64,000 nucleotides of DNA, from assembly GCA_046254885.1 (NCBI GenBank), contig CM100994.1:93638727-93702726 (forward strand), written 5' to 3'. The notes under the pieces are model-generated. The model saw only the letters and a program-made list of their open reading frames with translations. It ran no database searches and was not told the DNA's origin. Below, in pieces: positions 10,360 through 58,864 of the stretch (within the stretch, counting starts at the first letter, position 1; every line of letters begins with the position of its first letter). The DNA is from Sinanodonta woodiana (lineage: Eukaryota). The translations under genes were made by a program, and so were the position numbers.

Positions 10360-10373
10360 TGTTGATTTGATAA

Positions 10374-25641: not shown

Positions 25642-25671
25642 AATATTATGTATAATACATAGTTATATCTA

Positions 25672-26589: not shown

Positions 26590-28202
26590 GCCTTACACTC
26601 ATCGGTTATTACTTTGCGAAGAAATTCTATTTCATATATGGGAGGTGATGGTAACCAAACATTGGTTTGTTTATCACAGCTAAAAATTACTTCAGATATT
26701 ATCAAATCTATTAAAATATTAACATCTAGCATCCACCGTAATAACACGGTTGGACACCATCGTTTTTCATGTAAATGTCGTCCAATCCAAACATATACGA
26801 TTGGATGTAATCCTTCAGCGAATTTAAACGAAATAACCTCAGCGAATCCCGTTAAAGTATAATCGGGTAATGGTCCATTAACGGATCTTTGAACCATTCT
26901 ATGTGTTGGTAATCCAAATTCGTTATACCATTTATTACATTCACCGCCACCGAGAAAACTTTCTGGGTAGCATGGAATCATGTCAACGGACATCATATCG
27001 GGAAAATTATATTTGGTATTTCACAGTCCGCCTTGGCCGTATTTAACACAGCTCGCACGGACATCCGCGATAAACTTTTTCCTGGTTGGTTCCCAGGAAT
27101 TTTTCTCTCTGGTAAATTGGGCTGCTATCCATGATGCTGTGAAACTTGTTGTCGTGGATATATCTGCTAGCGAATTCTTCCCTGTCGCGTTGCAATGATT
27201 CCGTTCTATAGATGATTGCATCTGCGGTAACAAATTGGTCATATTTGTCACCATCACTTGAGAACAACCAAACATTTACCGGGTTAATATTATCTTTGAT
27301 CCACGTGAACATATCACCGGTATAGTATCTGATTCGTTTTTCACGTGGAAAATCACCTTCGTTAACTCCCCAAGCATGAAAATTGTGGTCGATAATCTCG
27401 ATTGGTGATCCACCCTTGCGATAACAACCAGAATCATAAAATATCCTATCTGGGAGCATTTTCACTATAATCGGGATTTTTAATCTTCGCTCTAACATTT
27501 CAACGTCTTTTCTCGTTGCACCATTTCATTTCTTATCAATGTAATCATTCCATGAATTAATTATATTAAGCCTTTTATCGTTCAGCTTCAAACCTCGCCG
27601 TGAGTTTCTGAAATGTTCAAATACTTGCTCGGTTACACAATTTAGCGTTGTTGATAATCTCATTCTGTCAACTTTTCGTTCATTTGGAGTTTCAACTGGA
27701 TATAATCCATACACGATAATGTTATACGGGTATGCTACGTTGTAATGACTATCAATACCAACTAACACACCAGGTTTAGTTTTTTTCGTTAACACGAATA
27801 ATTTTTTATTATATGTTACTCGTTGACGATGACGGGCTACCTTCCATGACGGGGTTGGTTCACCAAATAGCAAATCAAGGATATCTTGTTTTTTTTACGT
27901 TTTCATCGAGATGGTCTCCGTAAAAAAATACTATAAAATACATCTAACGTATATGGGCAATCAAGATTAATCATCGATGCTATTTCTCGGGCGCGTTTTT
28001 CTGTCATAGTTTCATCGTCGTAGTTTGTTCTGTATGTTGCAAATACGTACGCGGCACCATTCTGCAGATGTTGATATTTAGCTTCACGAATACTATTTAT
28101 AATTCGAGATTTATACTTTGTCGGGGATATTTTCCCATCAAGGTCAACGCGGGTACGATTCCTCGGTTGATTCACCTCGGTAATTTTAGATAATTTTGTC
28201 AT
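26590..28202 (-). pseudogene. replicase N-terminal part of I-A (unknown-function domains; 3 frame breaks), separated from its helicase part by I-B
   Basis: ORF pieces 27903..28202, 27526..27873, 27043..27498 and 26590..26996 are collinear with II-a replicase pieces 44284..42813. Conserved IIDHNxHAW and MxSVDMxxCYPxSFLGxGEC...NGPLPD..LTGFA..SF.FAxxLH..xYVWIG.H motifs. Confidence 0.6.
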
Positions 28203-38487: not shown

Positions 38488-38653
38488 ATATAAAGCCTGA
38501 TTTTAAGATGTCAATTTGTCAATCCAGAGTGGTCAAATCCTACAAAGCTTTTCCAGGCATCGAATCGTTAATTTAAGCCTTCCTCCAAATAGCAAAAAAA
38601 TAAAATGATGCCCCTGCGTCCGAGATAGGCTGCTCAGGGTAATCCTATGGATT
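38488..38653. repeat. left TIR of II-a (outer ~70 bp missing)
   Basis: ataaagcctgattttaagatgtcaatttgtcaatccagag...ccgagataggctgctcagggtaatcctatgg is mirrored at 53930-54130. Confidence 0.6.
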
Positions 38654-39313
38654 TTAAGTGGATATTTGATCAAGTCTGATACGATATCGTGTCCTAGGGT
38701 CATACAAATTAATTGTAACAAATCCGTGTGCGGTCGACTGAGCATGACTGAAAAAGTTTTTAAATTTATTGAAGTCCATGTCGGAACACCATGTCTGCCA
38801 AATATTTCGTAGCGTATGTGTATCAACGCCATTGAATACAGCAAGAATATTACAGTTATCCCTGATTACTTTTGGTATTTGAGTGTACCGCTGAGTGACA
38901 TATATCACATCAGTGTTTTTATGCCTGCCTCTGGAAAATATCCTAGCAGGGCTTTTTTGATTGTCTAACATTACATCATCGTATACGACTAAATTATTTA
39001 CGCTTCCATCGAGGTCCTCAACGGATGGCGCATCATTGATATCAGTTATAAACTCAATGACGTTTTCTCCTGCAATCTCTGAAGCGTTTTCGTTAAATTC
39101 TTTTAACACTTCATAGCACCGTTGATCATCTACGGACGGGGCAACTAAATACAACTTGTTCCACCTGATCCATCTCATTTTTAAATTAAGTAGCAATTGC
39201 GTCTTGCCGGATCCAGATGGTCCAATGATAATCATCCGAACAGAGTTTGGTAACGCTGCGACGTGTTTTATTGGTTCTCTTGTTTTAGTCGCTGAAAAAT
39301 CAATTACATTCAC
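38654..39313 (-). CDS. FtsK/HerA-type packaging ATPase (intact, 219 aa)
   Basis: IIGPSGSGKTQLLL, LVVYDDVMLD, RGRHKNTDVIYVTQRYTQIPKVIRDNCNIL. Confidence 0.75.
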   Translation of the reverse strand: MNVIDFSATKTREPIKHVAALPNSVRMIIIGPSGSGKTQLLLNLKMRWIRWNKLYLVAPSVDDQRCYEVLKEFNENASEIAGENVIEFITDINDAPSVEDLDGSVNNLVVYDDVMLDNQKSPARIFSRGRHKNTDVIYVTQRYTQIPKVIRDNCNILAVFNGVDTHTLRNIWQTWCSDMDFNKFKNFFSHAQSTAHGFVTINLYDPRTRYRIRLDQIST

Positions 39314-39330
39314 AACGCTATATATAAATT

Positions 39331-39859
39331 ATGGATTTATATTGTGTGAAGTGTAAAACGCGTACTAGCAGAAATGATGTGACGACAATTACAACTAAAA
39401 ATAATCGAACAGCACTTAATGGTAAGTGTGCGACATGTGGTATAAAAAAATTAGATTTGTTTCCTCTGACAGCATCAAGGGTGTTTAAAAAAAACAACTC
39501 GGAGTTGATATTGCAGCCAAATTAGCAAAACTCACAGGAACCCCATGGGAAAAGTATCCCGGAGAAAAGCACCTTCCAGGATATAGCTACTGTGGCCCGG
39601 GAACACGATTAGATATCAGACTAGATGAACAAAATCAACCCCGACCTGGCGAGAATCCGATAAATGCTATTGATAATACGTGTCATGCTCATGATGTTGC
39701 TTATAAAAGTAGCAATTTGCAGCAAAGGCATATCGCTGATGTAAAATTAATTCATGCGCTAAATGCTATTCCTGATAAATCCTTCAAAGAAAAATTGGCT
39801 TCATGGTTGGTAAAAACAGCTATGAAAGGTAAGTTGGTGATGGGCGCTAATTATAAATA
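39331..39859 (+). CDS. C4 zinc-finger / PLA2 protein; +1 frame break in A8 at 39487-39494
   Basis: MDLYCVKCKTRT...GKCATCG, then in the next frame YSYCGPGTRLD (YxGxG) and CHAHDVAY (HDxxY). Contiguous if the A-run is read one base longer, the same site and direction as in the I-A copy. Confidence 0.65.
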
Positions 39860-39861
39860 AT

Positions 39862-40796
39862 ATGGAATATATTTATTATTCTCCGAGAGGATACTGGAGG
39901 GGTAAAGCTGCAATTAGTAAACTCGCAAGTGCCGCAAGGGTAAAAAAGACAACTGCGGATAATTGGTTATCCAAACAAGCTATTTGGCAAATTTTTCTAC
40001 CACGCCCTAAACAAATCAACTTTTCGCATTTTGATGTTACTGTACCTAATGAAGTTCATCAAGCTGATTTATTATTTTTGCCACATGATAACGGTTACAA
40101 ATACGCGCTAACAGTAGTTGATGTAGCGAGTCGATACAAACAGACAGAGCCATTGAAAACAAAGTCGGCATCTGAAGATGCTTCTGCATTTGAAAGGATT
40201 TATCGTAGAGGTCCTCTGCGCTGGCCAAATCTACTACAGGTTGATCCTGGTAAGGAATTTCAAGGTGTTGTTGCATCTTCAATGAAACATCATAATGCCG
40301 CCATCAGACGAGGACATACTGCACTACATCGTGATCAGGCAATTATTGAACGATTCAATCGGACTCTTGCTGAGCGGTTATTTGGATATCAATACGCAAA
40401 AGAATTCATTCAGGATAAAAGATCTCGTGAATGGGTTAAAAGGTTACCAGGAGTAGTTGCAGCTCTAAATAATGAGATTACCAGAACAATCAATATGAAA
40501 CCCAGCGACGCAATAAAAAAAGTATATACCCGGACAACCACGAGATGGTTATTCCCAGCCAATTCTTGGTAATGTCACTGTGAGATATTTATACGAGCCA
40601 GGAGAGCTTGAAGGTGGTACAGCGAGGGCTACTGATCCTATTTGGAGTGTTACATAGGATATCTACTATAACACGATCAACTGGTACACCTCCAATCTAT
40701 AAGTTGGATTCAACTGCACCTCAGCGGGGTTTTACACGAGAACAACTACAAGTGATTCCTGACGATACTCAATTGTCTCCATGCGGCCTTAACTAG
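39862..40796 (+). CDS. rve integrase (DD35E; 236-aa ORF intact through the core; C-terminal SH3-like region frameshifted)
   Basis: LTVVDVASRY..VDPGKEF..35 aa..ERFNRTL. C-terminal VRYLYEPGELEGG and YKLDSTAPQRGFTREQLQVIPDDTQL are in other frames. Confidence 0.8.
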
Positions 40797-41193
40797 CGCC
40801 TTTTCGTCTATTACACTCAAGATATGTCAACATCACATTATCGCGTATATGCCCGAGATTGTTATTTTTTCTGTCTACGGTAAATTGACGAGGGTCTTTA
40901 TCCGAATACTGCCAGCGCATTATACAATTGCAACTCGCACAGTGATTATTATGTTGCTGTTTCAAAACAATTATAAATTCAGCATCAATATCAAATTCCC
41001 GTTTATTTTTTTATCCTGTTGTTTGTATCCAGAGAGTTTTTTATTCATAATTTTAATATCGAAAATGCTGGTATTTTTAATATCACTGATTGTGGTTTCT
41101 GCGTCATCATCGAAAACAATTCTTCGAAGTTAATTTAATCGCCGCACTCTGGATACTGCAAGATATACTAAATTCGACCACTCAATGCGATTA

Positions 41194-44100
41194 TCAACTA
41201 TCCAAACAATTGTATCCGTGATGATTAATCCCTGCGAAGAGTATTGTTGCTGCGTAACCTAGCGTCCATGGTGATTTATCAGCACGCAACGCATCTTCGA
41301 CAGCACTAATATCAACCAGTACAATATCATTTAATACTAAAATCTGTTTTTCTGTCAACCGGCCTGGAACTTCAACTTCAATATTTTGTCGCCGTGTGTC
41401 CGAAGGCCTGTAACACAACGGTACTGGCACCGTTGGAAATTTTTCTTTATGCAACTCGAATAACTTTCTCTGAAGTGTATCTCTGACTATTTTTCTACTT
41501 GCGATTATCAAATCATTTGGTCTCCACGTTTCCCAAAAGTCATTCATGGTAGTTTCTGGAATTATTTCACGCGCTACTTCACATTGAATTCTATCGGGTT
41601 GTAATCTGATTAGTTTCTTGAATTCTCGTAATGGTTCATCAAGTGCTCTATGGTCAGTATCGATTTCTTCATAATAGTCAACAAACCCTTTCAGGTAATC
41701 ATGTGGACTCTTGCCAACAAATGGTGGTGGTTGACCATGATCGCCACACATTATCACTTTTGTATTCGAACGCAACAACCAATCAATAAACATTTGTAGC
41801 ACATCTAGCGAAACAGTGCATATTACATCCCATATAATGATTTCAGGAATAAATTTCTCGCCCATTCTTTCAGGGGTCCACTCATCACCTTTATATCTAA
41901 AAAAGCTGTGATAAGTACATGCATCTACGTTTCGTTGTTTTCTCTCTCTCGCTAGTCTGTGAGTCGGTGTAAGCACAATCATATTTGCACGATCTCGATA
42001 TAATTCTATCGCACGTGTTGTTTTCCCTGACCCGCCACATCCGTTTAAATAAACTGTTTTATACCTACAAATCGGGTCAGATACCACTGGTGCATTAGAC
42101 CACTTTGATAAATTATCACCGCGTAAGTAATTATCGGCCATCGGGACATCTGCTGATTTGAAATAATCACGTCGTATTTCATTTTTAATTCTCCATGTGC
42201 CCCAACTCTCATTTGGATTAGTAAATTCAGCCACTTCGTTTATGTAATTGCGGTCAATATACATTGAATCAATTGCAACTCTAACCGCAGTATTAGGAAA
42301 TCTATTTATCATTGAAAATAAATTGATAGAAGCATAACCCAGCATAGATGCCCTCAAATGTGCATACGGAGAACTTTCACCGTCGTTGTAAGTAACAATT
42401 GTACCTAACTTTACCCCATTGGACAAGAAAGCTGTTTTACAATTCGCATATCTATTTTTTGCTACTGCATCTTTGATTACAAAATCGTATTCGGCGTCAT
42501 CTATAATCAGCCGTGAAGAATATCTTTTATAATCGTAGTTTTCCCCCCTTGAGTAAATTTGCCAATTATTCTCCTGCCGAGATCTTTTGCTTCGATGTTT
42601 CGTTGGTTGAATATCTTTTTGGATCACTCAATGATATATTCTTCGTTGCAATCTCGAAGATGTTTTCTTGATTCGTCAATTATACTATCAAGACGCTCTG
42701 GTTATGGCAGCCAGACATCAGTCTGCGCTCGATATGATATAATTGCCTCGCTGACAATCAACGAAATTTGCATTTTACAATCAATCATATATCGCAATAA
42801 CACTATTGGCAGTCATATTTTTTCAGACATATGTCTACCAATCCAAACATAACAACACGGATGCAGTCCAGTTGCGAATTCAAATGATACTACTTTAGCA
42901 AATCCGGTTAAATCAAAATCAGGTAATGGTCCATTAATAGCAACACGAGTCATTTCATGTACTGGGTGACCAAATCGTTTGTAATACTCAGCACACTCCC
43001 CATACCCGAGGAAACTCCCTGGATAACAAGCAACCATATCAACGGAAATCATACTATCTCGGTCGTATTTATTATTCCATAAACCACCGTGATTAAGTTT
43101 CAAAAAGCTTGATTGTACATCTGGTAAAAAATCTCTGCGTGTTGGTTTTCACGCATTTTTCTTTCTTGCAGCATGGGCTGCAATCGATGGAATTGTAAAA
43201 CAATTTGTCAGTAATTGTTCGTCTGATTTTCCATCATTGAATTCCATGGCGAGTTTTTTCATCCGTGTATGGAGATCTTCAGTGCGGTATAATTCACCGT
43301 TAGGTCTTACAAATTGATTGAATCCACACTCTTCATCTTCAGCACTGCGAAGTAACCACACTGACACAGGGTCATTTTTACACGCACACGCAATAGCATC
43401 GAATAGTCTTTCTTCCGTGAGAAGTCCATCCCTGGTGAATTCTTTAGGGATAGACTTCAATGTTCTATCCCGTGGGAATATTGTAATCGTGGGTGTCCAA
43501 GCGTGTTTGTTATGATCAATAATTTTGATTGGAGCTCCGTTTTTATTGTATTTCAATTCGTATAACACCTCAGCGGTAATCGTTATAACGGTTATTGGAA
43601 ATCTTAGCAGTGTTTCTAATTTAGATATATCAGTAATAGTTACTACATTCTCTTTCACAGTTAAATCCCATTCATTAATTTTCTTACGCCGCAGCTCAGT
43701 CAATTTATTTCCACAGAGTGCATTTGTAAAATATTCCATTACTCGTGCTGCTACACAATTCAATGAAGCCCCTGACGAGAGTTTCATTTGTGCTAGTTTT
43801 CCAATATCAGGCTTCTTACTCAACGGGTATATCCCATAAACAACTGCTGTTTCAGGATAAGCTCGTTCATAGCATGGTCTGTCAATTCCAGTTTACAAAC
43901 CCGGATTGGAATCACGGCTAACAGTTAATGTTTTCTTGTCGCTAAGAATTGGAACTAATTTGTCTCTTATAATCCAATCACCTCATTCCAATTCCGCATG
44001 GATAATAAATTTCACTCTAAAAAATACTTTTTACTGTCAAGTTGTGATTACATCGCAGCAGCAGTTTCATCATTCATGGTGGCATCAACAACGCCATCAA

Positions 44101-44284
44101 ATTTAAATCTCGACCAGCTATGAGATGCACCGTCGTGCTTTAATTCCTCTGCACAGTCACAAATTTTATTTATTAAACTTCTATCCGTTATTGCCTTTTT
44201 GAGGGTATTTTTGAGGGGTCTATCGAGATTAAATTTAATATTTTTCGAAGGCTTAATCGCCGATAATCTCTCGAACTCCTTCAT
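41194..44284 (-). CDS. replicase, ~1,030 aa: N-terminal unknown domains plus intact 477-aa SF1 helicase (upstream part in 4 frame-shifted pieces)
   Basis: 41194..42627: VYLNGCGGSGKTTRAIELY, LTPTHRLA, IMCGDHGQPPPF, motif-VI region degraded (TILFAGINHHG). Upstream pieces 42813..43103 (MISVDMVACYPGSFLGYGEC), 43149..43823 (IKIIDHNKHAW) and 44048..44284. Confidence 0.7.
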
Positions 44285-44329
44285 GTTATAATTAAAACAA
44301 GTATTTAAATAAAAAAAATTATTATATGA

Positions 44330-44663
44330 TGAATAATTGCAAATGGCTTATGATAGGTTCGACAACTCCATGTAACAAGTCTTGTAGAAATGAATACTGT
44401 GGATATCATTTACAGAGTGTTCGAAAGGGTCGAAAGGTCCCTTAAAATGCCTTGCTTGCGGAATTGGCGTGAGAGGATATTCACAACTTTGCGTGGTGTG
44501 TGGAGGCAAGCGGTATAGAGAATTAAAACGTTACTATGACAAGCGAATAGAAAATGCAGTGATTGACCCTACCCTTGACTCTGTCAAAGACAAAATCATC
44601 AAAACCCCACATGACTACATTAATAGATTTATAATTAAGACAAATAATAAATTAGACAAATAG
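44330..44663 (+). pseudogene. small Cys-rich zinc-ribbon protein (frameshift)
   Basis: STTPCNKSCRNEYCGYHLQS then LKCLACGIGVRGYSQLCVVCGGKRYRELKRYY. Confidence 0.45.
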
Positions 44664-44689
44664 TATTTTTTTTACAAATGAGCTAAGAA

Positions 44690-45237
44690 TTCAAACCTCA
44701 TCCAGTGCTAAGTAATTCTGAAGCATCTCGTGATGGCATTGTTAGAAATCGTATTCTAAAGAATACATTAAAGAAGATGTATAATACCACGGGGTATTTG
44801 ATGTTCATTGCTGGTTGAAAAGTATTACATTCACAGAACCATCTATGAAGCATTTAACGGATTAATCGAGGACGGATTTGTGATTGATCATAAAAATGGC
44901 GTAAAAACTGATGACTCTCTTCAGAATCTCCAAGTTGTTACTCAAAGTTAGAATACAAAATTCGGTGGAACTGGCAAATATGGAAAACAAAAAAAAAAGG
45001 GTTGTGAAATCATTTGACACAGCAACTAACAAAAAAGAAATATTTCAGTCAATAAATGCTGCTGGAAAATGTTTCGATATTTGTCCACTCTCAGTACAAA
45101 AAGTAGCAGAAGGAATATATCGGACACCGACTTCCAGGCGAAATAAACTCAAAATTCGATTTGAATACATTACACCAAGTGGAGATTATTCCTGCGTGGA
45201 TATTCCAGAGTGTAGAGTTATGCCGCTTTATCCATGA
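44690..45237 (+). pseudogene. HNH endonuclease remnant (heavily degraded)
   Basis: GFVIDHKNGVKTDDSLQNLQVVTQS then a stop. The C-terminal AGKCFDICPLSVQKV matches the SAGKYYDICQQSLKRV tail of the other copies. Confidence 0.45.
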
Positions 45238-46984
45238 TTACAACGTCAATGGGTTTAGTCACTTTGCCTTACATGTGTATTGATGACGTATTCTTTTGTT
45301 GTTATTTATACTTCCTGATATAAATACAATGAAAGAATTAGTTCGTATATTTTACAAAAATAACCTGCATATGTGTGATTTAAACTAAATTGTAAATCAC
45401 TTATTGTTAGATGGGGGTTGGGAAAATTCACAGTCAAAACAGCTATAATGTACTAGATCTGTATCAAAGGTTTTTTTGCTTGTTCACCGTGTGAAAAGAT
45501 TTTATCTGACGCGCGGGTCGGCTATTGTTATTAATTTCGAAAGAATTTTCTCCAAGTGTTTTACTGATTTTTTTACCACACATACCTTGCAGACGACTAT
45601 ACTAGTATATACATCTCTGTGAATTTGGTCCTGTTACATCAGTATCAAATCAATTGAACAATTAAAATGTCAATTGTCATTTCCTTACCGAAACAGTCTT
45701 TAATATAAACTATGAAGGAATTGTTGATGATAATGATATCATTTTTTACCCTGTAATACAGCGGTTTTCGGATTAAAGGTAAACAGACGATTATAATACG
45801 TAGTGGTCACGTGATCGGTAACTGTCTTCTCTTGTACAACATACATAGATTAAAAACTCTCTTATTGCTAAGTGTGACCCGTGGTCTAGTGCAAACGTGT
45901 TGGCTTGTGGAACTCTACCAAGCTGACTGCTGCGGGTTCACGCCCCATTGCAGGCGAATGCCCGGTGGTAGCGACGTATGCTTTTTTCTTTATAATTGAG
46001 AAGGAGAGGCGACCTCCTTGTCGAAATTCAAAATGAAACCAAAAGATGCAATCCATGGCTATCTATTCACGGTAGCTTTGGGATTGAAGATTTTACTTCA
46101 ACCATGCAATCAATGAATTTGATTTTCATTGATTGCATTTTTGGTTCTATTTTGAATTTCGACCATTATGACTCAATCATTTCATTATATCATCATTTAT
46201 CCATTCATTGTATATATGCTCTTTGTATGTCTCCTCCCCTTTGGGCTTACTTGGATGTGAAGGCGCAACCAAGGAGTTCCAAAGATGTATTGTATATATG
46301 TCAGCTACAGTCTGCCAAAACACTCGATATTGGAGATTAATGGCTTTCGTAAATGTCCTTAATTAAGTTAATTAAGTTAGTTAAGTTATCATTGTATATA
46401 AATCATAAATCATAAATCATTGTATATAATCATATGATAAAAACGGAGGTCTCAAAGAGACCTCCCGATATTTTTTCATTAAAAATTACTTTGCAATTTT
46501 CATAATTAAATAAATATATTTTAATATATTATGGATAATCAGGATTTACATCTTATAATTTCTGAAATTTCAAATTTGAAAAATCGTAGAATAAAATCAG
46601 AAGTTCTCAACACAGATTTCATTACTTCTGAATTTAGTCGAATAGACGGTAAGTTAAAACACGGTTACTATGTTTTACCTAAAATGTATTCATTAATATA
46701 AAAAAATACAGACATCAATAAATTCATCTCTGTTTGGAATGACATAGACGAATTGATACAGTTATTTAGCATTGTTGAATCCGTCAGACAAAAACTATGA
46801 TGTGAATATAATCGAAGGGCAGAAATAGCTTTAAAACTTAAAAATATTAAACAAATTATTAATGAAGACTCTAGAAATTGCAAAGCTGAAAATCCTACGG
46901 ATTTTTCAGTAGAATTATCTCATGAGGTACCTCACACGCATTAAATTTTCACAATTACATTCCTGACTAATCAAGGGAAAACCC

Positions 46985-47225
46985 TATGGTAAAAATACTT
47001 CCTAGATTATGACTTGTAAGAGTTCTTTTTTTCAGGGTAAAATTCAACTTGCGTTAACAAAGCGCTATTCACTTCCTTGATTATGACTTGTATTGTAAGA
47101 GTTCTTTTTCAAGGTAATATTCAACTTTGAAAATGCTTTGCATTTTTACGATACATAAATAACAAAGCGTGATTCACTTCTTGATTGTAATGATAAAAAT
47201 CAACGCGCGCGCTTAAACTCTAACA
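46985..47225. promoter_or_regulatory. direct-repeat array upstream of the II-a structural module (candidate late promoter/enhancer)
   Basis: cttcctagattatgacttgtaagagttctttttttcagggtaaaattcaact occurs twice, and aacaaagcg[c/t][t/g]attcacttc[c]ttgatt occurs twice, within 240 bp before gene A (47270). Confidence 0.35.
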
Positions 47226-47269
47226 CGGAATCTATTCACAATTGAAAACATTAATGGGAAATTAGAATA

Positions 47270-47734
47270 ATGATCGCAGAAGCGATGACTTCGAGAATAA
47301 ATAAGGAACGACTCGTGGCCCTTAAAAGGTTCATACTGATTAGGGACCGTCTAAGGGACAAATTACAACAGCAAGCTCAAACGGACTTTTCTATTGAGCC
47401 TGAAGACCTTTTTGCCCCTGTAACGAGTGCAACAAGAGAGGTTAAAACCGCAGCAGAGCGTGTCATATACGGTGATATACCCAAAGAAGGAAAGCGACAT
47501 GAGATGCCTGTCCTTGGTGTACTTGAAAAGATAGCAGCTGAAACTGAAAAGACACAGCAAGGGATAAAGAAATTATCCAGTGATATAAAAACCCAACGAG
47601 AGTTTGAGCGATTAGCTGATATTGATGATGAAAATATACCAGCGCCTGAACCAGCAAAAGAAAAATCTCAACGAGGTGTTCCTTTTATAAATAAATTTGA
47701 TGAGGATGCTATAAAAAGAATAAGAGAGGGTTGA
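47270..47734 (+). CDS. protein A
   Basis: 154-aa ORF; N-terminal RINKERLVALKRFILIRD aligns with the I-B copy. Confidence 0.45.
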   Translation: MIAEAMTSRINKERLVALKRFILIRDRLRDKLQQQAQTDFSIEPEDLFAPVTSATREVKTAAERVIYGDIPKEGKRHEMPVLGVLEKIAAETEKTQQGIKKLSSDIKTQREFERLADIDDENIPAPEPAKEKSQRGVPFINKFDEDAIKRIREG

Positions 47735-47735
47735 A

Positions 47736-48376
47736 TTGAATAAACTAGAGGATTATACAACCTTTGGTGATTTTGCTATCAAAAATTATTATCAAAGGGA
47801 ACAATTTTTAAACGACCAGTATAAAAATAGTGAAATAAGCAAAAACGACTGGGTTGATTGGTTATATAAAATAAATAAGGGAATTACTGGCAATTTAAAA
47901 AGGGATACACTAGAGTACAGAGCTTTTAGATTAGGGGCTGATAGTTATGGTATACAGCGACAACAACTACGAGTGCAAGAACTACAATGACGACGAGAAG
48001 AACGAGGACGGGGTCGAGGACGGGGTCAAGGGAGGGGTCAAGGCGGGGTCGAGGTCGAGGTCAACAAGCGCAATCACCTGATGATAGTCAAGGAGCAACT
48101 GGTACAACTAAGGAGGTGATTGCTAGTGGGTATTCAAGTGGTGGCAACATTGGAAATTCAGCTGTGACATGTCCTGGCAATATTCTCAGTGATATACCAC
48201 GGCTAGAAGTTCTAATTGGTGCAAAACGATCTGGAAATAATTCTACGGAAATAATTTATGATTCAGCTGATATTTATCGAAGACTATTTCAAGGTGGTGT
48301 CATGGACATTAATTTATATCGTGAGCTTATTGAAGAGTTAGTGGAAGGTCACCGAGATGGTTATTACAGCGACTGA
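47736..48376 (+). CDS. protein B (two ORFs joined by a frameshift; RG-rich linker)
   Basis: 47736..47990 plus 47987..48376. A GA-rich repeat encodes RTRTGSRTGSREGSRRGRGRGQ. C-terminal GGNIGNSAVTCPGNILSDIPRLEVLIG...GYYSD. Confidence 0.45.
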
Positions 48377-48479
48377 ATTTTCACAATTGGAAAACCAGTA
48401 CTTAGAAACTGTTAGCAATTGAAAACACTAGTATTTTTATAATAAGATGATCAAACACTATAATCATGATAAACCAACT

Positions 48480-48927
48480 AGCGTCTACGTGGCAAACTCA
48501 CGACTGCCTGTGTATAGCGCATGCTACGGTGACGGTCTTGGCAATAATATTGTAGGTTTATTTACAAAAAATGGCCCCAAAAGTGTCACCGCTAGCTAAA
48601 CAATTAGGGATGAAAGCTATTGATGTTATTCGTGATAGGGGAATTAGCGCTGTTGGAGATCTTGCTGAAAATGCATTTTTTGGAGCAAAGGATAAAATAG
48701 TATCACTGGTAAAATCCAGAAGAAAAATGCCAATAGTGCTACCATCTACAACAGTGATGCCTGCAAGTGTTAGTAAAGTAATAAATAGCGCAGCGGAGCA
48801 AAAACTAGCATCATTAGTAACTTCACCAGTGCCATCAATGACTTCGTCGGATACAACAAATAACGCTATCATGAGTGCGATATCGGGGAGTGGATTAAAG
48901 CCACGAAGAAGAAAAAAAAACAATTAA
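48480..48927 (+). pseudogene. protein C (N-terminal frameshift)
   Basis: ANSRLPVYSACYGDGLGNNIVGLFTKNGPK is in a different frame from ORF 48571..48927. Confidence 0.4.
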
Positions 48928-49018
48928 AAATTCATTGAATTTGAAAATCCTCTGGATTTTTATACTAATGCTGGCATTAGTATTTAGAAATTTTTATAGC
49001 AATTGAAAATACTAGTAT

Positions 49019-50449
49019 TTGAATATAATGTTTAAACGAACAGTCGACACTGCGTTTGACATAGACGCACCAGTACGTAAATATGATTCAGTTCGTGATT
49101 ATCAGTGTTATTCCTATCATGCTATGCAACCTAACTTACGATCACGAATTGAACTTCAAGTCCAGGATACCAGTAAATACTTTTTGCCATGTGAAGTATT
49201 TATTGAAGTCGAAGGAGAACTAGTAACAAATGTTGCAGCCGATACACCATATGATAATAACCAAAATATCCGAGTTGGATTTGTCAACAATGGTATCATG
49301 GCGCTATTTGAAAGTGCAAGATATCTCATTGATGGAAAAGACATTGAATCAATCGACCGTGAGGTTGATATTGCAACAACAATAATCGGACTAGCAAGAT
49401 ATTCTGATGATTATACAAGGTCAGTTGGTCCGTCTATGATGTTTGCCAAGGATACTTCTGATCAACCTGACCACCTTCAGTACATCAGTTAACTCCATAA
49501 GACACTTCAGTTGCTAATCAACAAGAAGCAGCTAATCCAGAATGCCGAGCTAGACCAGGTGCGGATTTCGACATTATAAAAGGTGTTAACGAAAATTACA
49601 ATCTAGGATTTGCAACACGAAAGGCAACATTACATGGACAACGCAGACAGTTTTCATGTGCGATTCCGCTTCATCATATATTTGGATTCTGCAGAAATGT
49701 CAGAAAAGTCATTTATGGAGCAAAGCATACAATCGCGCTAGTACGAAAAGGTGATGACAATGATGCAATCTGGCGTGCTGCTGGTGTTGCTGCTGGTAAA
49801 GTTGTTTTAAGAAAATTAGCGCTGTGGATGCCAGTAATGACCCCGTCAATTACCGAAGAACAACGGTTACTTTCATTTATGGACACAGGAGGTAAATCAT
49901 TGCTAAGTTGGCTAACAACAACGACTGATACCAAGGATGATGATGCTGCAGGGACTTTTACATGGCACTTAGCAGCAAAACAAGGTGTTTCAGCTCCACG
50001 TCATATAGTTATTGCGCTACAAGATCGTGCACGATTAAATTCCCAAGAACACAGTCATATGATATTTAATCCACTCGGTGTTAGTGAGGTTTCGCTGAGA
50101 ATAAATGGCCAGCAGGAACCAACCGAGGATATACAACTCGATTATGGTCAAAACCAGGTTGCACGTGTGTATCATCGGATGCTGTCATTTATGGGTCGTG
50201 ATCAAAATGTCGATACTGGTTAACAAATATCGCAACTTGATTTTAAAAGCCTATATCCGATATATACTTTTCACTGGAACATCTTGATTTAATAAGACAA
50301 TCTGTCGTTGACATACACTTTAGAGCTCGTATTGCCCCTGCTGGTGTTAATAATAGAGCGGTTGCTGTCATTCTCAGTGATAAATCAATGCTGTTGGAAG
50401 GGGTTGGTGGACGAATGAGACTTATTGATGCACCAGTGGAAAATATGTA
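49019..50449 (+). pseudogene. candidate major capsid protein (3-4 ORF pieces)
   Basis: 49019..49492, ~49560-49830, 49828..50223 and 50240..50449 are collinear with the II-b copy 62606-64000. Confidence 0.4.
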
Positions 50450-50518
50450 GTTGAAATGGAAAATATTTCAGATTTTTACAATTAGATCAATTGAAAGCAT
50501 AAATGATTTTACAATAAA

Positions 50519-51425
50519 ATGCCATATAATGTTGTTAGTGTCTCACTGACCGATGGCCAGGTCAAGAAATTGCGATCAAAGTCAGCTAAAGAATGTGGAA
50601 CCACAATAACGCTAAAGCCGTCACAAATGACTGGTGGTACACATATAATCTCATTAACGGATCGTCAAATCAAACATTTCAATGATGCAATGAAGAATAA
50701 AAAAGGTGTTCAGGTAGATTTTTCAAAGGCTGCAATCGATAATATGATAAAATCCGGTGGTATATTTCCGTTGTTAGCTGCTATGCCAGCGCTAATTGCA
50801 GCGGCTTCCCCAGCGGTGGCGAAAGCAGAGGCGCTAGGAGCTGTTGGTACTGCTGCAGGGATGGCACTAAAAAAGGCAACCGGTCAAGGATATAAAAAAA
50901 GTGAAAGGGTTTAAGACTACCAGGAACTCCGCATACATGGTGCAAGGGAAGCGGATTAAGAATACCAGGAATGGTTTATTAGCAAAATCCTACGGATTTG
51001 GGCCTATTGTTCCCATGTCTAATTTTGATTTAATTGATGCCGCTAGATCATTATCGCTGAAAAATTTCAGAGGAGTATTTATGAGAGATCAATTACCGAA
51101 AATTCCTAATGACGTTGAAACCGGCATAATCAATCTTGATAATTCCACAATGGGAACTCATTGGGTTGCATACGCGATTGATCCGCGTGGGATTGTCTAT
51201 TTTGATTAATATGGGTTAGCACCGCCGAAAGAATTTATGCGGTATATAACAAAACTAAAAAAAAATCCTGTTTTCTATTCCACGCTGCCAACACAACAAT
51301 TAAACGACCCGCCGATATGTGGCCGTGAAGTGTTAAATGTACTCGCGGAGATATCATTGAAATCCTCAAAACCACCTCATGTGGTTGTAAATGAATATAC
51401 CAATGGGAAGTTTTTAGAGAAATAA
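50519..51425 (+). pseudogene. adenain-like protease (frameshift in A7 at 50894-50900; in-frame TAA at 51207-51209)
   Basis: GTHWVAYAIDPRGIVYFD then a stop, then YGLAPPKEF...TQQLNDPPICGREVLNVL. The paralog has TCA (Ser) at the stop position. Confidence 0.65.
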
Positions 51426-51439
51426 AACATATCTTAATA

Positions 51440-51680
51440 ATCATGATTGATATTTGGGGACGACCTCTTTCAACAGCAGAAAAACCCAGCACGGAAACAC
51501 GAGCGCTTGATTCCATCAAGGATGTAAAAAAAAATAATAATCGAAGACGAAATCGCTGAGACGTTGAACTTAGCAAGTGTTGACCCGGGAGAAATAGTTA
51601 TATTTCAGGATCGCCAGGGTAAATTTAAATCCAGTAATGTGTCCCTGGATGTTCTTTTAACAAAAAAAACCACCATTCAG
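51440..51680 (+). pseudogene. protein D remnant (internal deletion)
   Basis: MIDIWGRPLSTAEKPSTE... and NLASVDPGEIVIFQDRQGKFKSSNVSLD match the N-terminus of 60811-61626. The rest is missing. Confidence 0.4.
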
Positions 51681-51687
51681 CAATATT

Positions 51688-51960
51688 GTGTACACGCTTG
51701 AATCCGGATCATTTGTTTGGGCTGTTACAAGTAATATACTACCTTACACTGCAGCCGTCAAGGGTATTTATCGATTAACACTAGTGTCGCCAACTCGGTG
51801 TAATATATCATCGCCGAGTTCATATGGAGACAATAACGTGATATCAACAATCATTGACAAAGATGCAACTGAACGGTTTACAATAACAAGCACAGACGCT
51901 CATTTAGCCAGGGCATCAGTGACATGGTATATAGAATCTGTAGCAGATCTAAGCAAATGA
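51688..51960 (+). CDS. protein E (90 aa)
   Basis: Nearly identical to 60425-60751. Confidence 0.45.
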   Translation: MYTLESGSFVWAVTSNILPYTAAVKGIYRLTLVSPTRCNISSPSSYGDNNVISTIIDKDATERFTITSTDAHLARASVTWYIESVADLSK

Positions 51961-52065
51961 AAAATCTTTTAAGAGTTTCGAAATCGAAAACACTATCATA
52001 TAAAATATAAAATGACTTCATCGTCACCATCATAATATCGCTATGATACCATCACGAAATTTTCA

Positions 52066-52542
52066 ATGGAACTCAAAGCACTAGCTGAAGAGTACGCAAT
52101 AAAAATTAAAAAATACAGCAGGAGAATTACCGTCATTGACGTTACAGTGTACTCAGTAAGCGGTGTAATGGCAGGAACTGGTATTATACTATCTTCAGTG
52201 ACAATGATAGCTCCGATTGCAGTTCCAACCGCTATCTCTGCGGTGACAACAATTGCCGGGGTTGCAAATGCAATCACGAAGAAATTATCATCATGTGCTC
52301 AGGAAAAACTTAACGAGTATACAGTAAAACATCAAATTGCATCAAACGGCTACACTCAATTATCCTCGCTGATATCATCGATTGATGACTCATTAATTAC
52401 CGACGATGAATTTTCCGCGATGGTTCGTATTTATGATTCCGCTATATCGAAATTAGAAACTATAAACAATAATAATAATGTCATCAGTAGAAATACTTCA
52501 ACGAATAGCAACAAATACAACTCCGGTACAAACAAAGCATGA
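52066..52542 (+). CDS. membrane protein F (intact, 158 aa)
   Basis: MELKALAEEYAIKIKKYSRRITVIDVTVYSVSGVMAGTGIILSSVTMIAPIAVPTAISAVTTIAGVANAI; one predicted TM helix. Confidence 0.5.
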   Translation: MELKALAEEYAIKIKKYSRRITVIDVTVYSVSGVMAGTGIILSSVTMIAPIAVPTAISAVTTIAGVANAITKKLSSCAQEKLNEYTVKHQIASNGYTQLSSLISSIDDSLITDDEFSAMVRIYDSAISKLETINNNNNVISRNTSTNSNKYNSGTNKA

Positions 52543-53478
52543 TATCAATAACATCAACAAACCCGGAATTTAGCGTGAACTTCCCCTCGCCGGTTTCAGT
52601 GAGCGAGATCGCGCTGGCAAAATTACGAGTATATCATAGTTGGCCTAATATTAGATCAGTAGCATTCGGCGGTCAACAACCCAACAATTCACTGGTGTTT
52701 GCACACAAGAATAAATCCGATGGGACACCAGACTGGCAGATTATTTCATTACCAACGGGGTCATACCAAATTGAACAAATCGATAAAGAATTTCAGCGTA
52801 GGATAAAATCAATTACTGGAAAAGAATCAAAAATTTCTATTAGCGTCCATGAACTGACGCTGTCATCTACAACTGAGATATCCACGGAGGGATACGTCGT
52901 AGACATTTATCGAAGCTCAATAAGAACCGTATTAGGTTGGCCTGAAAGACCACCTCAAAAAGAAACCGTTGATATACCCGAACCTGAAAAATTTAATTAT
53001 ATCACTAATAAAATAGCACCTGATAATCCAATAAAAAGTCATCACGATTATGAATTCAACAGATTCATGGTCGCGGTAAAAACATCCAACCTCCCGCCCA
53101 TAGATTATTATCGGATTAACTCAGTCGAGATTAATGAAAATTGTGTAGCTATGACTAATGATCTTGCATTGTTGTTGGTGTCATTGAGATCTGGTGAACT
53201 TTCCAGAGATGAATTTATCAACATCATAGAAACATGTAATAAAATCTTAGACGATGCAAAAATATTTCATGATAAGGTGATTTCTGATATTTATAATAGA
53301 CTTAATACTTCTAGTGCTAGTGACCTTTCTACCAGAACAAAATAATTTTTTGCCACACAATTTAATATCCGCGTAGAGGATATACCTAATTTTAAGTTGC
53401 CGGACTATCCGGTTCCCTCGATGAAACAATCTCTCAACGATGCCGTCTGGGAAGGTTTAAAAAAAACAACACGATAAT
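52539..53478 (+). CDS. candidate minor capsid protein G (C-terminal frameshift near 53340)
   Basis: STNPEFSVNFPSPV...LRVYHSWPNIRS. The C-terminal FATQFNIRVEDIPNFKLPDYP is in the next frame. Confidence 0.4.
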
Positions 53479-53511
53479 TGGTTAAAACGTCAGCAACCAC
53501 AAACAAATATC

Positions 53512-53859
53512 TTGACACACAATAATGCTCTAGATGGCACCGGTAGACATATTGCGCCAGGAAATGCGAATATTTCATCAGTGATTGCACTTAATTTAGT
53601 ATGTGATGTCATCAAAGGAAGCTATCACATTAATCTAGAACAATCAAATCAGGCCCAGCAAGGATATATTTTATACTCATTTGCACCAACAGCGCCACCT
53701 GGATTCTTAATTGTTGAGGACCCGGTTAATCCTGTATATATGCGATGTCATAATAAATCATTAACGAGAATCAATTTCCGGGTTACTGACCAGGCAAATA
53801 ATTTGATTGATCTACGCGGCGAAGTGTTAGCGATTAGTCTATTTGTGAATCGTAAATGA
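53512..53859 (+). CDS. protein H (115 aa)
   Basis: QGYILYSFAPTAPPGFLIVEDPVNPVYMRCHNKSLTRINFRVTDQANNLIDLRGE. Confidence 0.45.
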   Translation: MTHNNALDGTGRHIAPGNANISSVIALNLVCDVIKGSYHINLEQSNQAQQGYILYSFAPTAPPGFLIVEDPVNPVYMRCHNKSLTRINFRVTDQANNLIDLRGEVLAISLFVNRK

Positions 53860-53861
53860 AA

Positions 53862-54203
53862 AATCCATAGGATTTTCAGCTTTGCAATTTCAAAGGACTT
53901 TCAGTAAAATCATAAAAAATATTCACTTAAAAATCCTATGGTGAAAATCGAAGATTTTCCATTTCCAATCAAAGATTACCCTGAGCAGCCTATCTCGGGC
54001 GCAGGGGCGCAGGGCATCATTTTTTTTTGGTTGTTGCTATTTGGAGGAAAGCTTAGATTAACGATTCGATGACTGGATAAACTTTGTAGGATTTGACTGC
54101 TCTGGATTGACAAATAGACATCTTAAAATCAGGCTTTATAGGAAGCGTTAGATTAACGATTCGATGCCTGGAAAGCTTTGTAGGATTCGCCCTCTCTGCT
54201 GCT
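53862..54203. repeat. right TIR of II-a (with internal tandem duplication)
   Basis: Inverse complement of 38488-38653. The gcttagattaacgattcgatg[a/c]ctgga[t]aa[a/g]ctttgtaggatt unit is present twice. Terminus ctctctgctgct. Confidence 0.6.
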
Positions 54204-56011: not shown

Positions 56012-56679
56012 CACAGGGGCTCGTATCGTTGTTTACAATCGACCGGTCCTACATATAGTATAATAACTAGTACTCGTACAGAGCGCCGTTTGTTTGTACC
56101 CCCCTACTTATTTCAGTAACGAAAAGCATTATCAAAATAAAAAGTCCACAAATCTTACTCATTTCATTCATTGATTTATGATTTCTAACCCGATTGCGAC
56201 CAGGTTGTCCAGAACACCTTTATCGTCTGCGTGGTTTATACATTGCGGAAGTTCTCGTTACAACAATGGCCGCCCTTACATCAATTTCAGGCAGCTGGAC
56301 AAGTCCCGTTCTCAGCGAAAGGGCGTATTTGTCATCGTGGGACGTATCCGAGAGTAAACCAAATAGGAAAATGACGTCACTTTGGCACATAGATTTGACC
56401 CATTTGTGTGCAATATGGCGTCGTCTTATTATGGAAAATTCCGCAATGCTTGAAACGCACAGGAGCTGAAGGTGTTCTGGACAACCTGGTCGCAATCGGA
56501 TTAGAAATCATAAATCAATGAATGAAATGAGTAAGATTTTTGGACTTTTTATTTTGATAATGTCTTTCGTTACTAAAATAAGTAGGGGGTACAAACAAAC
56601 GGCGTTCTGTACGACTACTATAGTTATTATACTATATATAGGACCGGTCGATTGTAAGCAACGATATGAGCCCCTGTGT
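56012..56679. mobile_element. foldback / long inverted-repeat element (two ~210-bp arms, 246-bp spacer), MITE-like
   Basis: 56012-56221 is the reverse complement of 56468-56679 at ~95% identity (cacaggggctcgtatcgttgtttacaatcgaccggtcc...ccgattgcgaccaggttgtccagaacacctt). The mirrored ORFs 56194..56469(+) and 56220..56495(-), both starting MRPGCPEHL, are artefacts of it. Confidence 0.7.
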
Positions 56680-58519: not shown

Positions 58520-58864
58520 TTAAGATTTCACAAATAAACTAATCGCTAACACTTCGCCACGTAAATCAATCAAATTATTGGCTTGATCAGTAAGCCGGAA
58601 ATTTACTCTTGTTAGAAATTTATTATGACAACGCATATAGACAGGATTTACTGGATTTTCAACAATTAGAAATCCAGGTGGCACTGTTGGTGAAAATGAA
58701 TATAGGATATACCCTTGTTGAGCTTGATTTGATTGCTCGAGATTAACTTGATAGCTTCCTGCTATGGCGTCACATACTAAATTAAGTGCAATCACCGATG
58801 AAATATTAACATTGTTCGGTGCAATATGTCTACCGCCGCCGTCTGGGCCATTATTGTACGTCAA
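58520..58864 (-). CDS. protein H (114 aa)
   Basis: Intact ORF, paralog of 53512-53859. Confidence 0.45.
   Translation of the reverse strand: MTYNNGPDGGGRHIAPNNVNISSVIALNLVCDAIAGSYQVNLEQSNQAQQGYILYSFSPTVPPGFLIVENPVNPVYMRCHNKFLTRVNFRLTDQANNLIDLRGEVLAISLFVKS

What the first reader, a model, noticed from the sequence alone, without database searches (positions are those of the whole stretch)
41194..44284. Large replicase: conserved but unidentifiable N-terminal domains fused to an SF1 helicase
The ~1,020-aa protein has, in order:
- a 150-aa N-terminal region;
- a domain with an invariant IIDHNxHAW motif plus VWL..S and YRTE.L;
- a highly conserved ~100-aa domain (MxSVDMxxCYPGSFLGxGEC...NGPLPDxxLTGFAxVxSFxFAxxLHxxxYVWIGxH);
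- a complete SF1 helicase (Walker A GxGGxGKTT, GDHGQPPPF, TIHSxQGLT).

No primase or polymerase motifs (AEP DxD/sxH, PolB) were recognisable by eye. The His-rich motif could be a metal-dependent nuclease or primase active site. This is the element's only candidate replication protein.
Basis: partly seen in the sequence, partly recalled or inferred. Interest (0 to 1): 0.7.

Follow-up and report, generated by a model that had tools for sequence, protein, structure and literature searches.

The report
Dead polymerase-helicase gene of integrated virus
This is a decayed copy of the replication gene of a polinton-like virus integrated in a probably invertebrate genome; its "unidentifiable" front half is a protease plus a stripped-down protein-primed DNA polymerase, an architecture published in 2016 and 2024, so the finding is real but ordinary.

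Summary
The gene, however, is a pseudogene with 4 frame changes and 8 in-frame stops.

- "SVDMxACYPGSF" is PolB motif A.
- "IIGKFTQG" corresponds to motif B.
- "RVA(T/I)DS" corresponds to motif C.
- "LNC" plus "HNxHAW" are the Cys and His of a vOTU-like protease, not a nuclease or primase site.

The C-terminal half is a Pif1-like SF1B helicase.

This is the TP?-vOTU-palm-S1H-HNH "Tlr1-like helicase" or pPolB-S1H replicase of polinton-like viruses (Krupovic et al. 2016, 2024). The surroundings fit: RVE integrase, A32 ATPase, DJR capsid protein and Ulp1-like protease. Named relatives come from a coral and a mussel.

Verdict: a new member of a known kind, of low interest.

The parts
40789..44284 (-). 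Whole pseudogene of the pPolB-S1H ('Tlr1-like helicase') replicase, about 1,165 codons including the stop codon, with 4 frame changes and 8 in-frame stops
   Evidence: tblastn of intact homologs P0001 and P0003 covers aa 3-1168 in 5 HSPs. Stop codons are listed and motif coordinates.
43890..44284 (-). N-terminal alpha/beta domain of about 130 aa at the position of the terminal protein; fold not identified
   Evidence: Modelled confidently in P0003 residues 30-113. No specific fold hit was seen. It is the least constrained domain, dN/dS 0.32. The TP role is inferred from PMC11161782 only.
43272..43800 (-). vOTU-like cysteine protease domain. Candidate catalytic Cys in LNCVAARV (43740-43763) and His in IIDHNKHAW (43497-43523); also contains VSVWLLRS and ELYRTEDL
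42080..43091 (-). [quoted passage not shown] Motif A SVDMVACYPGSF 43011-43046; motif B RRIIGKFTQGG 42543-42575; motif C VRVAIDSMYI 42256-42285; WGTWRIKNE 42178-42204
41139..42079 (-). SF1B Pif1-like helicase. Walker A 42016-42042; Walker B 41812-41841 (mutated to DV in this copy); CGDHGQPPPF 41719-41748; YSSQGLIIT 41217-41243; LVYLAVSRVRR 41139-41171
   Evidence: Pfam AAA_19 1.6e-8 on the window piece. AAA_19 2e-10, AAA_30 2.3e-7 and UvrD_C_2 0.011 on P0003. phmmer against PDB finds Pif1 helicases at 2.4e-8.
40789..40944 (-).
   Evidence: Aligns at 85% identity to the P0001 tail. Pfam HNH is sub-threshold, E 0.002-0.08, in 3 of 7 family tails tested; the window's own tail gave no HNH hit there. 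Also Pfam HNH E 0.082 on full P0003 and PacI HNH E 0.26.
39862..40572 (+). Neighbouring RVE (retrovirus-type) integrase ORF of the same element
   Evidence: Pfam rve E 1e-6, 29.3 bits, below the 32.6-bit cut-off. The same ATPase-integrase-replicase synteny is seen at 5967-9626 and 20210-26324.
38654..39313 (-). Neighbouring A32/FtsK-type genome-packaging ATPase of the same element
   Evidence: Pfam Pox_A32 E 3.5e-12.
38489..38621 (.). Candidate terminal inverted repeat of the element; its partner is at 53974-54140
   Evidence: Inverted repeat of 117-167 nt at 87-90% identity. That it marks the element's ends is an inference.
53974..54140 (.). Partner arm of the candidate terminal inverted repeat

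Best explanation
The locus is a dead copy of the replicase gene of an integrated polinton-like virus (PLV, Maverick-related element).

The encoded protein belongs to the published 'Tlr1-like helicase' or pPolB-S1H class. From N to C terminus it has:
1. a domain of about 130 aa with unknown fold, at the position of the terminal protein;
2. a vOTU-like cysteine protease, with Cys in 'LNC' and His in 'HNxHAW';
4. a Pif1-like SF1B helicase;
5. an HNH-type endonuclease.

Shown here: the domain identities, their order, their conservation, purifying selection on every domain, the viral gene context, and the pseudogene state of this copy.

Inferred from the literature on this class (PMC11161782) and from phi29/adenovirus-type replication:
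- In an intact copy, the N-terminal domain would prime DNA synthesis at the ends of the linear genome with inverted terminal repeats.
- The vOTU domain would cleave the primer domain from the polyprotein.
- The palm domain would extend the strand.
- The fused 5'-3' helicase would unwind ahead of it, taking over from the lost exonuclease/thumb functions.
- The RVE integrase next door would insert the genome into the host chromosome.

The copy in this window can do none of this. The confidence of 0.85 applies to the identity of the locus; that the palm domain is an active polymerase I put at about 0.5-0.6.
For: Pseudogene state: 5 HSPs in different frames and 8 stops.

Family:
- 6 full-length homologs at 34-72% identity.
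- 771 HMM hits at E<=1e-3.
- Named relatives only in Desmophyllum pertusum, Sinanodonta woodiana and Thiodiazotropha MAGs.

Structure: AF2 of P0003 residues 1-744 with a 118-sequence alignment gave pLDDT 87.6 and pTM 0.84.

Polymerase:
- Foldseek against PDB: the 7 significant hits were all phi29 pol.
- BFVD: bidnavirus-like pPolB 6.4e-12, mavirus pPolB 1.6e-10, adintovirus, tectivirus and picovirinae pPolBs.
- Conservation: D408 53/59, Y413 53/59, D670 32/38, K706 28/28.

Helicase: Pfam and Pif1 matches.

HNH: weak Pfam and PacI matches.

Selection: dN/dS against the intact P0001 gene is 0.16 overall, 0.20 for vOTU and 0.15 for palm.

Context:
- In the window: rve (below the Pfam cut-off), Pox_A32, DJR-like MCP, and Ulp1/adenain-like protease, whose Pfam hits are weak and below cut-off.
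- On the metagenomic contig L001: replicase, rve and DJR MCP.

Published architecture: PMC5499653 and PMC11161782.
Against: - No sequence-only method linked the N-terminal half to PolB or OTU. Pfam found nothing, HMM against PDB found nothing, and hhalign against phi29+PRD1 gave probability 0.15. The domain calls therefore rest on one predicted structure plus motifs.
- I could not align the family with a named Tlr1, Bigelowiella PLV or transpoviron protein, so clade membership is by architecture, not phylogeny.
- Motif B lacks the canonical N, S and Y. The first Asp of motif C (DTD) is Ala. The KxY motif and the thumb are absent. Polymerase activity is therefore a prediction, and the 2016 paper read the same features as inactivation.
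- The terminal-protein role of the first domain has no support from this work.
Confidence: 0.85

Rival explanations
1. The family and architecture are the same, but the palm domain is an inactivated polymerase remnant that serves only as a structural or DNA-binding module. In this view the protein works as a helicase (plus protease and endonuclease), and DNA synthesis is done by a host or helper-virus polymerase.
For: - Motif B has lost the canonical Asn, Ser and Tyr: the consensus is (K/R)Dxx(C/R)x(I/V)IGKFTQG.
- The first Asp of DTD is Ala in 32 of 38 sequences.
- There is no KxY motif and no thumb. The model ends the palm about 40 residues before the helicase.
- This was the original published reading (PMC5499653).
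Against: - Both metal-binding Asp residues that matter (motif A D408, motif C D670), the steric-gate Tyr413 and K706 are near-invariant across a family that is only about 35% identical.
- The palm evolves under dN/dS 0.15, as tightly as the helicase.
- The 2024 paper notes that the same first-Asp loss occurs in active polymerases (mavirus, pipolins, mitochondrial plasmids) and now predicts activity (PMC11161782).
- Conservation alone cannot separate catalysis from a structural role.
Confidence: 0.3
2. A Helitron-like or rolling-circle Rep-helicase. In this view the His-rich 'HNxHAW' motif is an HUH-type metal-binding nuclease site fused to a Pif1-like helicase.
For: Helitrons also fuse an N-terminal nuclease to a Pif1-family SF1B helicase, and the helicase here is Pif1-like. 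The motif contains two His residues.
Against: - A PolB palm lies between it and the helicase.
- The element carries capsid, packaging ATPase, protease and RVE integrase genes and candidate inverted terminal repeats, which is not Helitron structure.
Confidence: 0.02
3. A primase-helicase of the AEP or D5 type, as in other polinton-like viruses, with the N-terminal half acting as a primase-polymerase.
For: Some PLVs do encode AEP-S3H or PolA-S3H replicases (PMC11161782).
Against: Those fusions use SF3 helicases, whereas this one is SF1B. No AEP, PrimPol or PolA structure appears among the significant fold matches, which are protein-primed PolBs.
Confidence: 0.02

Closest known systems
Tlr1-like helicase / pPolB-S1H replicase of polinton-like viruses (Bigelowiella natans PLVs, metagenomic PLVs), the Tetrahymena Tlr1 element and mimivirus transpovirons (Krupovic, Yutin & Koonin 2016, PMC5499653; Krupovic et al. 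2024, PMC11161782)
   Same: - Same size range: 1,000-1,400 aa in the papers, 949-1,336 aa here.
- Same domain order: variable N-terminal domain(s), vOTU with Cys and His, pPolB palm without exonuclease, first Asp of motif C missing, motif 4 missing, SF1B Pif1-like helicase, and a C-terminal HNH as in PLVs.
- Encoded next to DJR capsid and A32 ATPase genes.
- Accompanied by an RVE integrase, as in Tlr1.
   Different: - Motif B is more degenerate than the 'conserved' motif B described in the paper.
- The elements here also carry a Ulp1/adenain-like protease gene (weak, sub-cut-off Pfam hits), which the 2016 paper says PLVs and Tlr1 lack.
- The named relatives are from animals (a coral and a mussel) rather than protists.
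- No direct alignment or tree with the named members was made here.
Mavirus virophage pPolB and other 'palm-retaining truncated pPolBs' / pMVREs (PMC11161782; Virol Sin 2026, PMC13215967)
   Same: - TP-vOTU-palm organisation with the exonuclease lost.
- Foldseek E 1.6e-10 to the mavirus pPolB model.
- pMVRE groups 2-3 include SF1-helicase fusions, and pMVREs were reported in animal genomes including 10 of 67 cnidarians.
   Different: Mavirus has no fused helicase; it encodes a separate SF3 helicase.
Canonical Polinton/Maverick, adintovirus and bidnavirus pPolB
   Same: - Protein-primed PolB palm preceded by TP and vOTU domains. The best BFVD hit is a bidnavirus-like pPolB at E 6.4e-12 over 992 alignment columns, and adintovirus pPolB scores 6.5e-7.
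- The element shares integrase, protease, ATPase and DJR capsid genes with polintons.
   Different: Those polymerases keep the 3'-5' exonuclease domain, the thumb, and full motifs B, C and KxY, and they have no fused helicase.
Oxyrrhis marina OmPLV helicase SF1-pPolB fusion (PMC12721341)
   Same: An SF1 helicase fused to a pPolB in an endogenised PLV. Genomic copies are likewise broken into several ORFs.
   Different: The domain order is opposite (helicase N-terminal), the pPolB is complete with its exonuclease, and the authors consider it an independent fusion.
phi29 DNA polymerase (PDB 1XHX, 2PYJ)
   Different: About 10% sequence identity. phi29 pol has an exonuclease domain and a thumb, a separate terminal protein, and no protease or helicase.

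Membership tests
pPolB-S1H / Tlr1-like helicase | SF1B (Pif1-related) helicase domain in the C-terminal part of a protein of 1,000-1,400 aa | tested here: met
   Pfam AAA_19 (41.4 bits, cut-off 25.1) and AAA_30 (31.2, cut-off 27) on P0003. AAA_19 35.2 bits on the window piece. phmmer against PDB: Pif1 helicases at E 2.4e-8 to 1e-6.
pPolB-S1H / Tlr1-like helicase | Family-B DNA polymerase polymerisation (palm) domain with motifs A, B and C upstream of the helicase | tested here: met
pPolB-S1H / Tlr1-like helicase | Palm of the protein-primed type (TPR1 and TPR2 insertions) | tested here: inconclusive
pPolB-S1H / Tlr1-like helicase | 3'-5' exonuclease domain absent | tested here: met
   Only 287 of the 571 phi29 residues align. 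The about 250 residues upstream of the palm match OTU proteases instead. No Exo I-III motifs were seen in the alignment.
pPolB-S1H / Tlr1-like helicase | vOTU cysteine protease domain next to the palm, with conserved catalytic Cys and His | tested here: met
pPolB-S1H / Tlr1-like helicase | C-terminal homing-endonuclease domain (HNH in PLVs, GIY-YIG in Tlr1) | tested here: inconclusive
   Pfam HNH is below the gathering score (E 0.002-0.08) in 3 of 7 tails tested; the window's own tail gave no HNH hit. PacI HNH nuclease E 0.26. The CxxC...GH...N...CxxCN pattern is conserved in P0001, P0003, P0005, P0008, P0037, P0051, P0153 and the window copy.
pPolB-S1H / Tlr1-like helicase | Encoded by a PLV-, Tlr1- or transpoviron-type element (DJR MCP, A32 ATPase, terminal inverted repeats) | tested here: met
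   Pox_A32, DJR-like_dom, rve (below the Pfam cut-off) and weak sub-cut-off Ulp1/adenain protease hits in the window. L001 carries the replicase, rve and a DJR MCP. TIRs of 172-188 nt at 95-97% identity bound the element at 9.6-26.6 kb.
pPolB-S1H / Tlr1-like helicase | Groups phylogenetically with named Tlr1, PLV or transpoviron proteins | not tested
   No named reference sequence was available in the tools. BFVD hit H6WBE3 (999 aa, E 6.4e-11) has no name in the tables and could not be identified.
Canonical Polinton/Maverick pPolB | Complete pPolB with exonuclease (Exo I-III) and polymerase motifs A, B, C and KxY | tested here: not met
   No exonuclease domain, no KxY motif, no thumb, and a fused helicase instead.
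Helitron Rep/Hel | HUH (Rep) endonuclease domain N-terminal to the Pif1-like helicase | tested here: not met
   No HUH fold among the fold matches. The N-terminal half is OTU plus PolB palm.
AEP/D5 primase-helicase of PLVs | AEP primase-polymerase fused to an SF3 helicase | tested here: not met
   The helicase is SF1B. No AEP fold matches were found.

The most novel reading that the evidence does not exclude
The coral/bivalve-associated proteins found here may form a distinct, not yet described animal lineage of integrating viruses. This lineage would combine a polinton-type gene set (RVE integrase, a Ulp1-like protease supported only by weak Pfam hits, A32 ATPase, DJR capsid) with the PLV-type pPolB-S1H-HNH replicase, making it a living intermediate between polintons and PLVs. 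Its strongly modified motif B could mean the palm domain only performs the protein-priming step, or has an altered nucleotide specificity, rather than acting as a full replicative polymerase. Intact copies exist (P0001 and P0003, 1,168 and 1,176 aa), so the lineage may still be active in some invertebrates.
Probability: 0.2. Interest if true: 0.45.

Novelty: new member of a known kind. Interest (0 to 1): 0.2.

Why it matters
It matters little beyond annotation. The result explains a large 'orphan' gene that recurs in this window, and evidently in coral and bivalve assemblies where it is labelled 'hypothetical protein', as the replicase of endogenous polinton-like viruses.

It also provides a well-modelled, deeply aligned example of the TP?-vOTU-palm-S1H-HNH architecture from animal-associated elements. 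The conserved-residue table (C177, H258/H261, D408, Y413, D670, K706) could guide a biochemical test of an open question in this field: whether these exonuclease-less palm domains are active polymerases (the 2024 view) or inactivated remnants (the 2016 view).

The pseudogene in this window has no function of its own.

Tried and rejected
- Pfam on the window pieces and on six N-terminal halves, up to E<=10, found nothing relevant for residues 1-740.
- HMM profiles of 6 and 118 sequences against all PDB sequences gave no polymerase or OTU hit, only a weak PacI/HNH match to the tail.
- hhalign of a 14-sequence palm alignment against phi29+PRD1 polymerases gave probability 0.15. This is not significant, although the motif B and C columns co-aligned.
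- The first AF2 run, with only 6 sequences, was too poor to use (pLDDT 56).
- The afdb50 fold library was unavailable.
- A scan of IMG/VR viral contigs with degenerate patterns found no relatives.
- Exact-sequence look-up of six window ORFs found none in the 15-billion-protein collection, so the source organism stays unknown.
- The contexts of P0001 (4.5-kb contig) and P0163 (13-kb contig, neighbours without Pfam hits) added little.
- A literature search for accession H6WBE3 found nothing.
- I considered that the in-frame stops reflect an alternative genetic code, because 5 are TGA at Trp positions. I rejected this because there are also TAA/TAG stops at Leu, Glu, Gln and Val positions and four frameshifts.
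- I considered and rejected the HUH/Helitron and AEP-primase readings (see the rival explanations).
Full report
**Observation**

The region is not an open gene, however.
- The mechanical ORF list shows three separate ORFs: 43149-43823, 42813-43103 and 41194-42627.
- Against the intact homolog P0001 the locus aligns as five pieces in different frames: aa 3-90, 87-588, 585-1024, 1025-1096 and 1096-1168. This means four frame changes, and there are eight in-frame stops.
It adds the last helicase motif (LVYLAVSRVRR) and an HNH-like tail. The gene is therefore 40789-44284, about 1,165 codons.
- In this copy Walker B reads DV instead of DE, and TIHSSQG reads TIYSSQG.
- Three more fragments of the same gene lie in the window: 8134-9626(-), 20210-20986/22968-24149(+) and 26595-28169(-). 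All carry stops.

**Family**

A word-indexed search of 5.8 billion proteins with the reconstructed protein found only six homologs at 34-72% identity. Several are intact at 1,058-1,333 aa. An exhaustive HMM search with the N-terminal 744 residues found 771 proteins at E<=1e-3. Most are short fragments, as expected for decayed genomic copies.

A profile search returned the only named members:
- hypothetical proteins of the coral Desmophyllum pertusum (KAJ7387317.1);
- hypothetical proteins of the mussel Sinanodonta woodiana (KAL3865473.1);
- proteins of 'Candidatus Thiodiazotropha' MAGs. From background knowledge, these are clam symbionts, so host contamination is likely.

The window's own ORFs are not in the collection, so the source organism is unknown.

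**What the N-terminal half is**

Sequence methods fail. Pfam gives nothing, profile against PDB sequences gives nothing, and hhalign against phi29+PRD1 polymerases is not significant.

By eye, 'SVDMxACYPGSF' fits family-B polymerase motif A (DxxSLYPS), 'KDxxRRIIGKF' fits motif B (Kx3NSxYGKF) and 'RVATDS' fits motif C (YxDTDS).

A first AlphaFold run with 6 sequences was poor (pLDDT 56). With a 118-sequence alignment (A3) the model of P0003 residues 1-744 reached pLDDT 87.6 and pTM 0.84. The fold searches gave:
- Foldseek against PDB: the seven significant hits were all phi29 polymerase (E 3.3e-6 to 2.3e-5). The next hits were OTUD2 (prob 0.85) and the TYMV protease/DUB (prob 0.69).
- Foldseek against BFVD: protein-primed PolBs led the list. 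These were a bidnavirus-like pPolB (6.4e-12, 992 columns), an unnamed 999-aa protein H6WBE3 (6.4e-11), mavirus pPolB (1.6e-10), adintovirus, tectivirus, picovirinae and His1 polymerases, and the known inactivated-PolB poxvirus proteins.

Across the family the candidate catalytic residues are kept in about 85-100% of sequences, even though many are pseudogene fragments:
- vOTU: N176 68/71, C177 65/71, H258 61/64, H261 58/63.
- Motif A: D408 53/59, Y413 53/59.
- Motif C: D670 32/38.
- After motif C: K706 28/28.

The position of the first Asp of DTD is Ala in 32 of 38 sequences. The N, S and Y of motif B are not conserved.

**C-terminal half**

Pfam AAA_19 and AAA_30 score above their cut-offs on P0003, and UvrD_C_2 matches weakly (E 0.011). 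The nearest solved relatives are Pif1 helicases at E 2.4e-8. The tail gives sub-threshold HNH hits and a weak PacI match.

**Selection**

Comparing the window copy codon by codon with the intact P0001 gene (L004) gives dN/dS 0.16 overall. By domain the values are 0.32 (first domain), 0.20 (vOTU), 0.15 (palm), 0.11 (helicase) and 0.13 (HNH). Every domain was under purifying selection for most of the divergence, and this copy died recently relative to that divergence.

**Context**

The gene sits between an RVE integrase ORF at 39862-40572(+) and, beyond that ORF, an A32-type packaging ATPase at 38654-39313(-). The same ATPase-integrase-replicase synteny recurs at 5967-9626 and, inverted, at 20210-26324. 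DJR major capsid and Ulp1/adenain-like protease genes lie nearby; the protease hits are weak and below the Pfam cut-offs.

Inverted repeats at 38489-38621 and 53974-54140 (87-90% identical) may mark the ends of a 15.7-kb element.

The metagenomic contig L001 carries the homolog P0006 next to an rve integrase, a PLA2-domain protein and a DJR capsid gene.

**Comparison with the literature**

This architecture is published.
- Krupovic, Yutin & Koonin 2016 (PMC5499653) showed that the 1,000-1,400-aa 'Tlr1-like helicases' of PLVs, Tlr1 and transpovirons contain a pPolB polymerisation domain. That domain has motifs A, B and C but lacks motif 4 and the exonuclease. It lies upstream of a Pif1-related SF1B helicase, with a C-terminal HNH (PLVs) or GIY-YIG (Tlr1). 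The N-terminal 450 aa or so were left unannotated.
- Krupovic et al. 2024 (PMC11161782) used AlphaFold to define TP-vOTU-PALM-S1H, with conserved vOTU Cys and His. They argued that the palm is probably active, because the same first-Asp loss occurs in active polymerases, and renamed the proteins pPolB-S1H.
- A 2026 survey (PMC13215967) found such palm-retaining truncated pPolB elements, many fused to SF1 helicases, in 97 eukaryotic genomes including animals (10 of 67 cnidarians).
- The Oxyrrhis fusion (PMC12721341) has the opposite domain order and a complete pPolB.

**Differences noted here**
- Motif B is more degenerate than described for the class.
- Protease and RVE integrase genes are both present in these elements.
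- The named relatives come from invertebrates.
- I could not run a tree with named members, so membership rests on architecture and structure.

**Mechanism (inferred, not shown)**

In an intact copy, replication would be protein-primed from the inverted termini of a linear genome.
- The vOTU domain would release the priming domain.
- The palm domain would synthesise DNA.
- The fused 5'-3' helicase would unwind ahead of it.
- The RVE integrase would insert the genome into the host chromosome.

The main open alternative is that the palm is catalytically dead and only structural.

**Verdict**

'Unidentifiable domains, no polymerase motifs, His-rich nuclease/primase site' is wrong. The locus is a decayed new member of a known kind, and interest is low.

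Noticed in passing
window 9618-26589, flanked by 8134-9626 and 26595-28169: A 16.9-kb element of the same kind lies inside an older copy of the same replicase gene. Its terminal inverted repeats are 172-188 nt long and 95-97% identical (9634-9805 / 26403-26574). The halves of the split gene are aa 562-1073 on the left and aa 10-537 on the right. This is a nested virus-in-virus insertion. The inverted similarity seems to run a little beyond 9634/26574, so the exact ends and target-site duplication were not settled.
   Followed up: partly
window 21742-22470 (-): An ORF with a MULE transposase domain (Pfam E 1.2e-13) lies in the 2-kb gap that interrupts the replicase copy at 20210-20986 / 22968-24149. 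A cut-and-paste transposon has apparently landed in that copy.
   Followed up: no
window 38489-54140: In the element that holds the target gene, the structural block (two unknown ORFs, DJR capsid, protease, a 345-aa-type ORF; 47270-53522) is on the plus strand, while the ATPase and replicase are on the minus strand. In the two other elements (5.8-38.6 kb and 9.6-26.6 kb) the structural and replication blocks are co-oriented. This is either a different natural arrangement or an inversion.
   Followed up: partly
window 49061-53849 and 58527-64000: Two structural-gene blocks are inverted copies of each other (79-94% identical over about 5 kb) and lie tail to tail. A separate 154-nt inverted repeat (90%) sits at 56100-56253 / 56436-56589 between them.
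   Followed up: no
window 43151, 42815, 42626, 27023, 8202: Five of the in-frame stops in the replicase copies are TGA at positions where homologs have Trp (TGG>TGA), and none is TAG at Trp. Other stops are TAA/TAG at Leu, Glu, Gln or Val. Together with the frameshifts, this looks like ordinary decay rather than a reassigned codon.
   Followed up: partly
L001 4847-5551: The metagenomic relative's contig encodes a protein with DUF5679 and a parvovirus-type phospholipase A2 domain (Phospholip_A2_4). It lies between the integrase and the capsid block.
   Followed up: no
proteins P0164 and P0176: Homologs of this eukaryotic-virus replicase are deposited as proteins of 'Candidatus Thiodiazotropha' bacterial MAGs on 2-kb contigs. 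These are probably contigs of the animal host binned by mistake.
   Followed up: no
window 14840-14976: A long (AT)n microsatellite lies inside the inner element.
   Followed up: no
P0003 residues 700-725; window 42178-42204: About 35 residues after motif C there is a motif W-G-x-W-R-x-K-x-E, with W703 and K706 invariant in 28 of 28 sequences. A non-significant hhalign run placed it opposite 'LGYWAHE' of phi29 polymerase. It may be a conserved palm element not listed among the classical motifs.
   Followed up: partly
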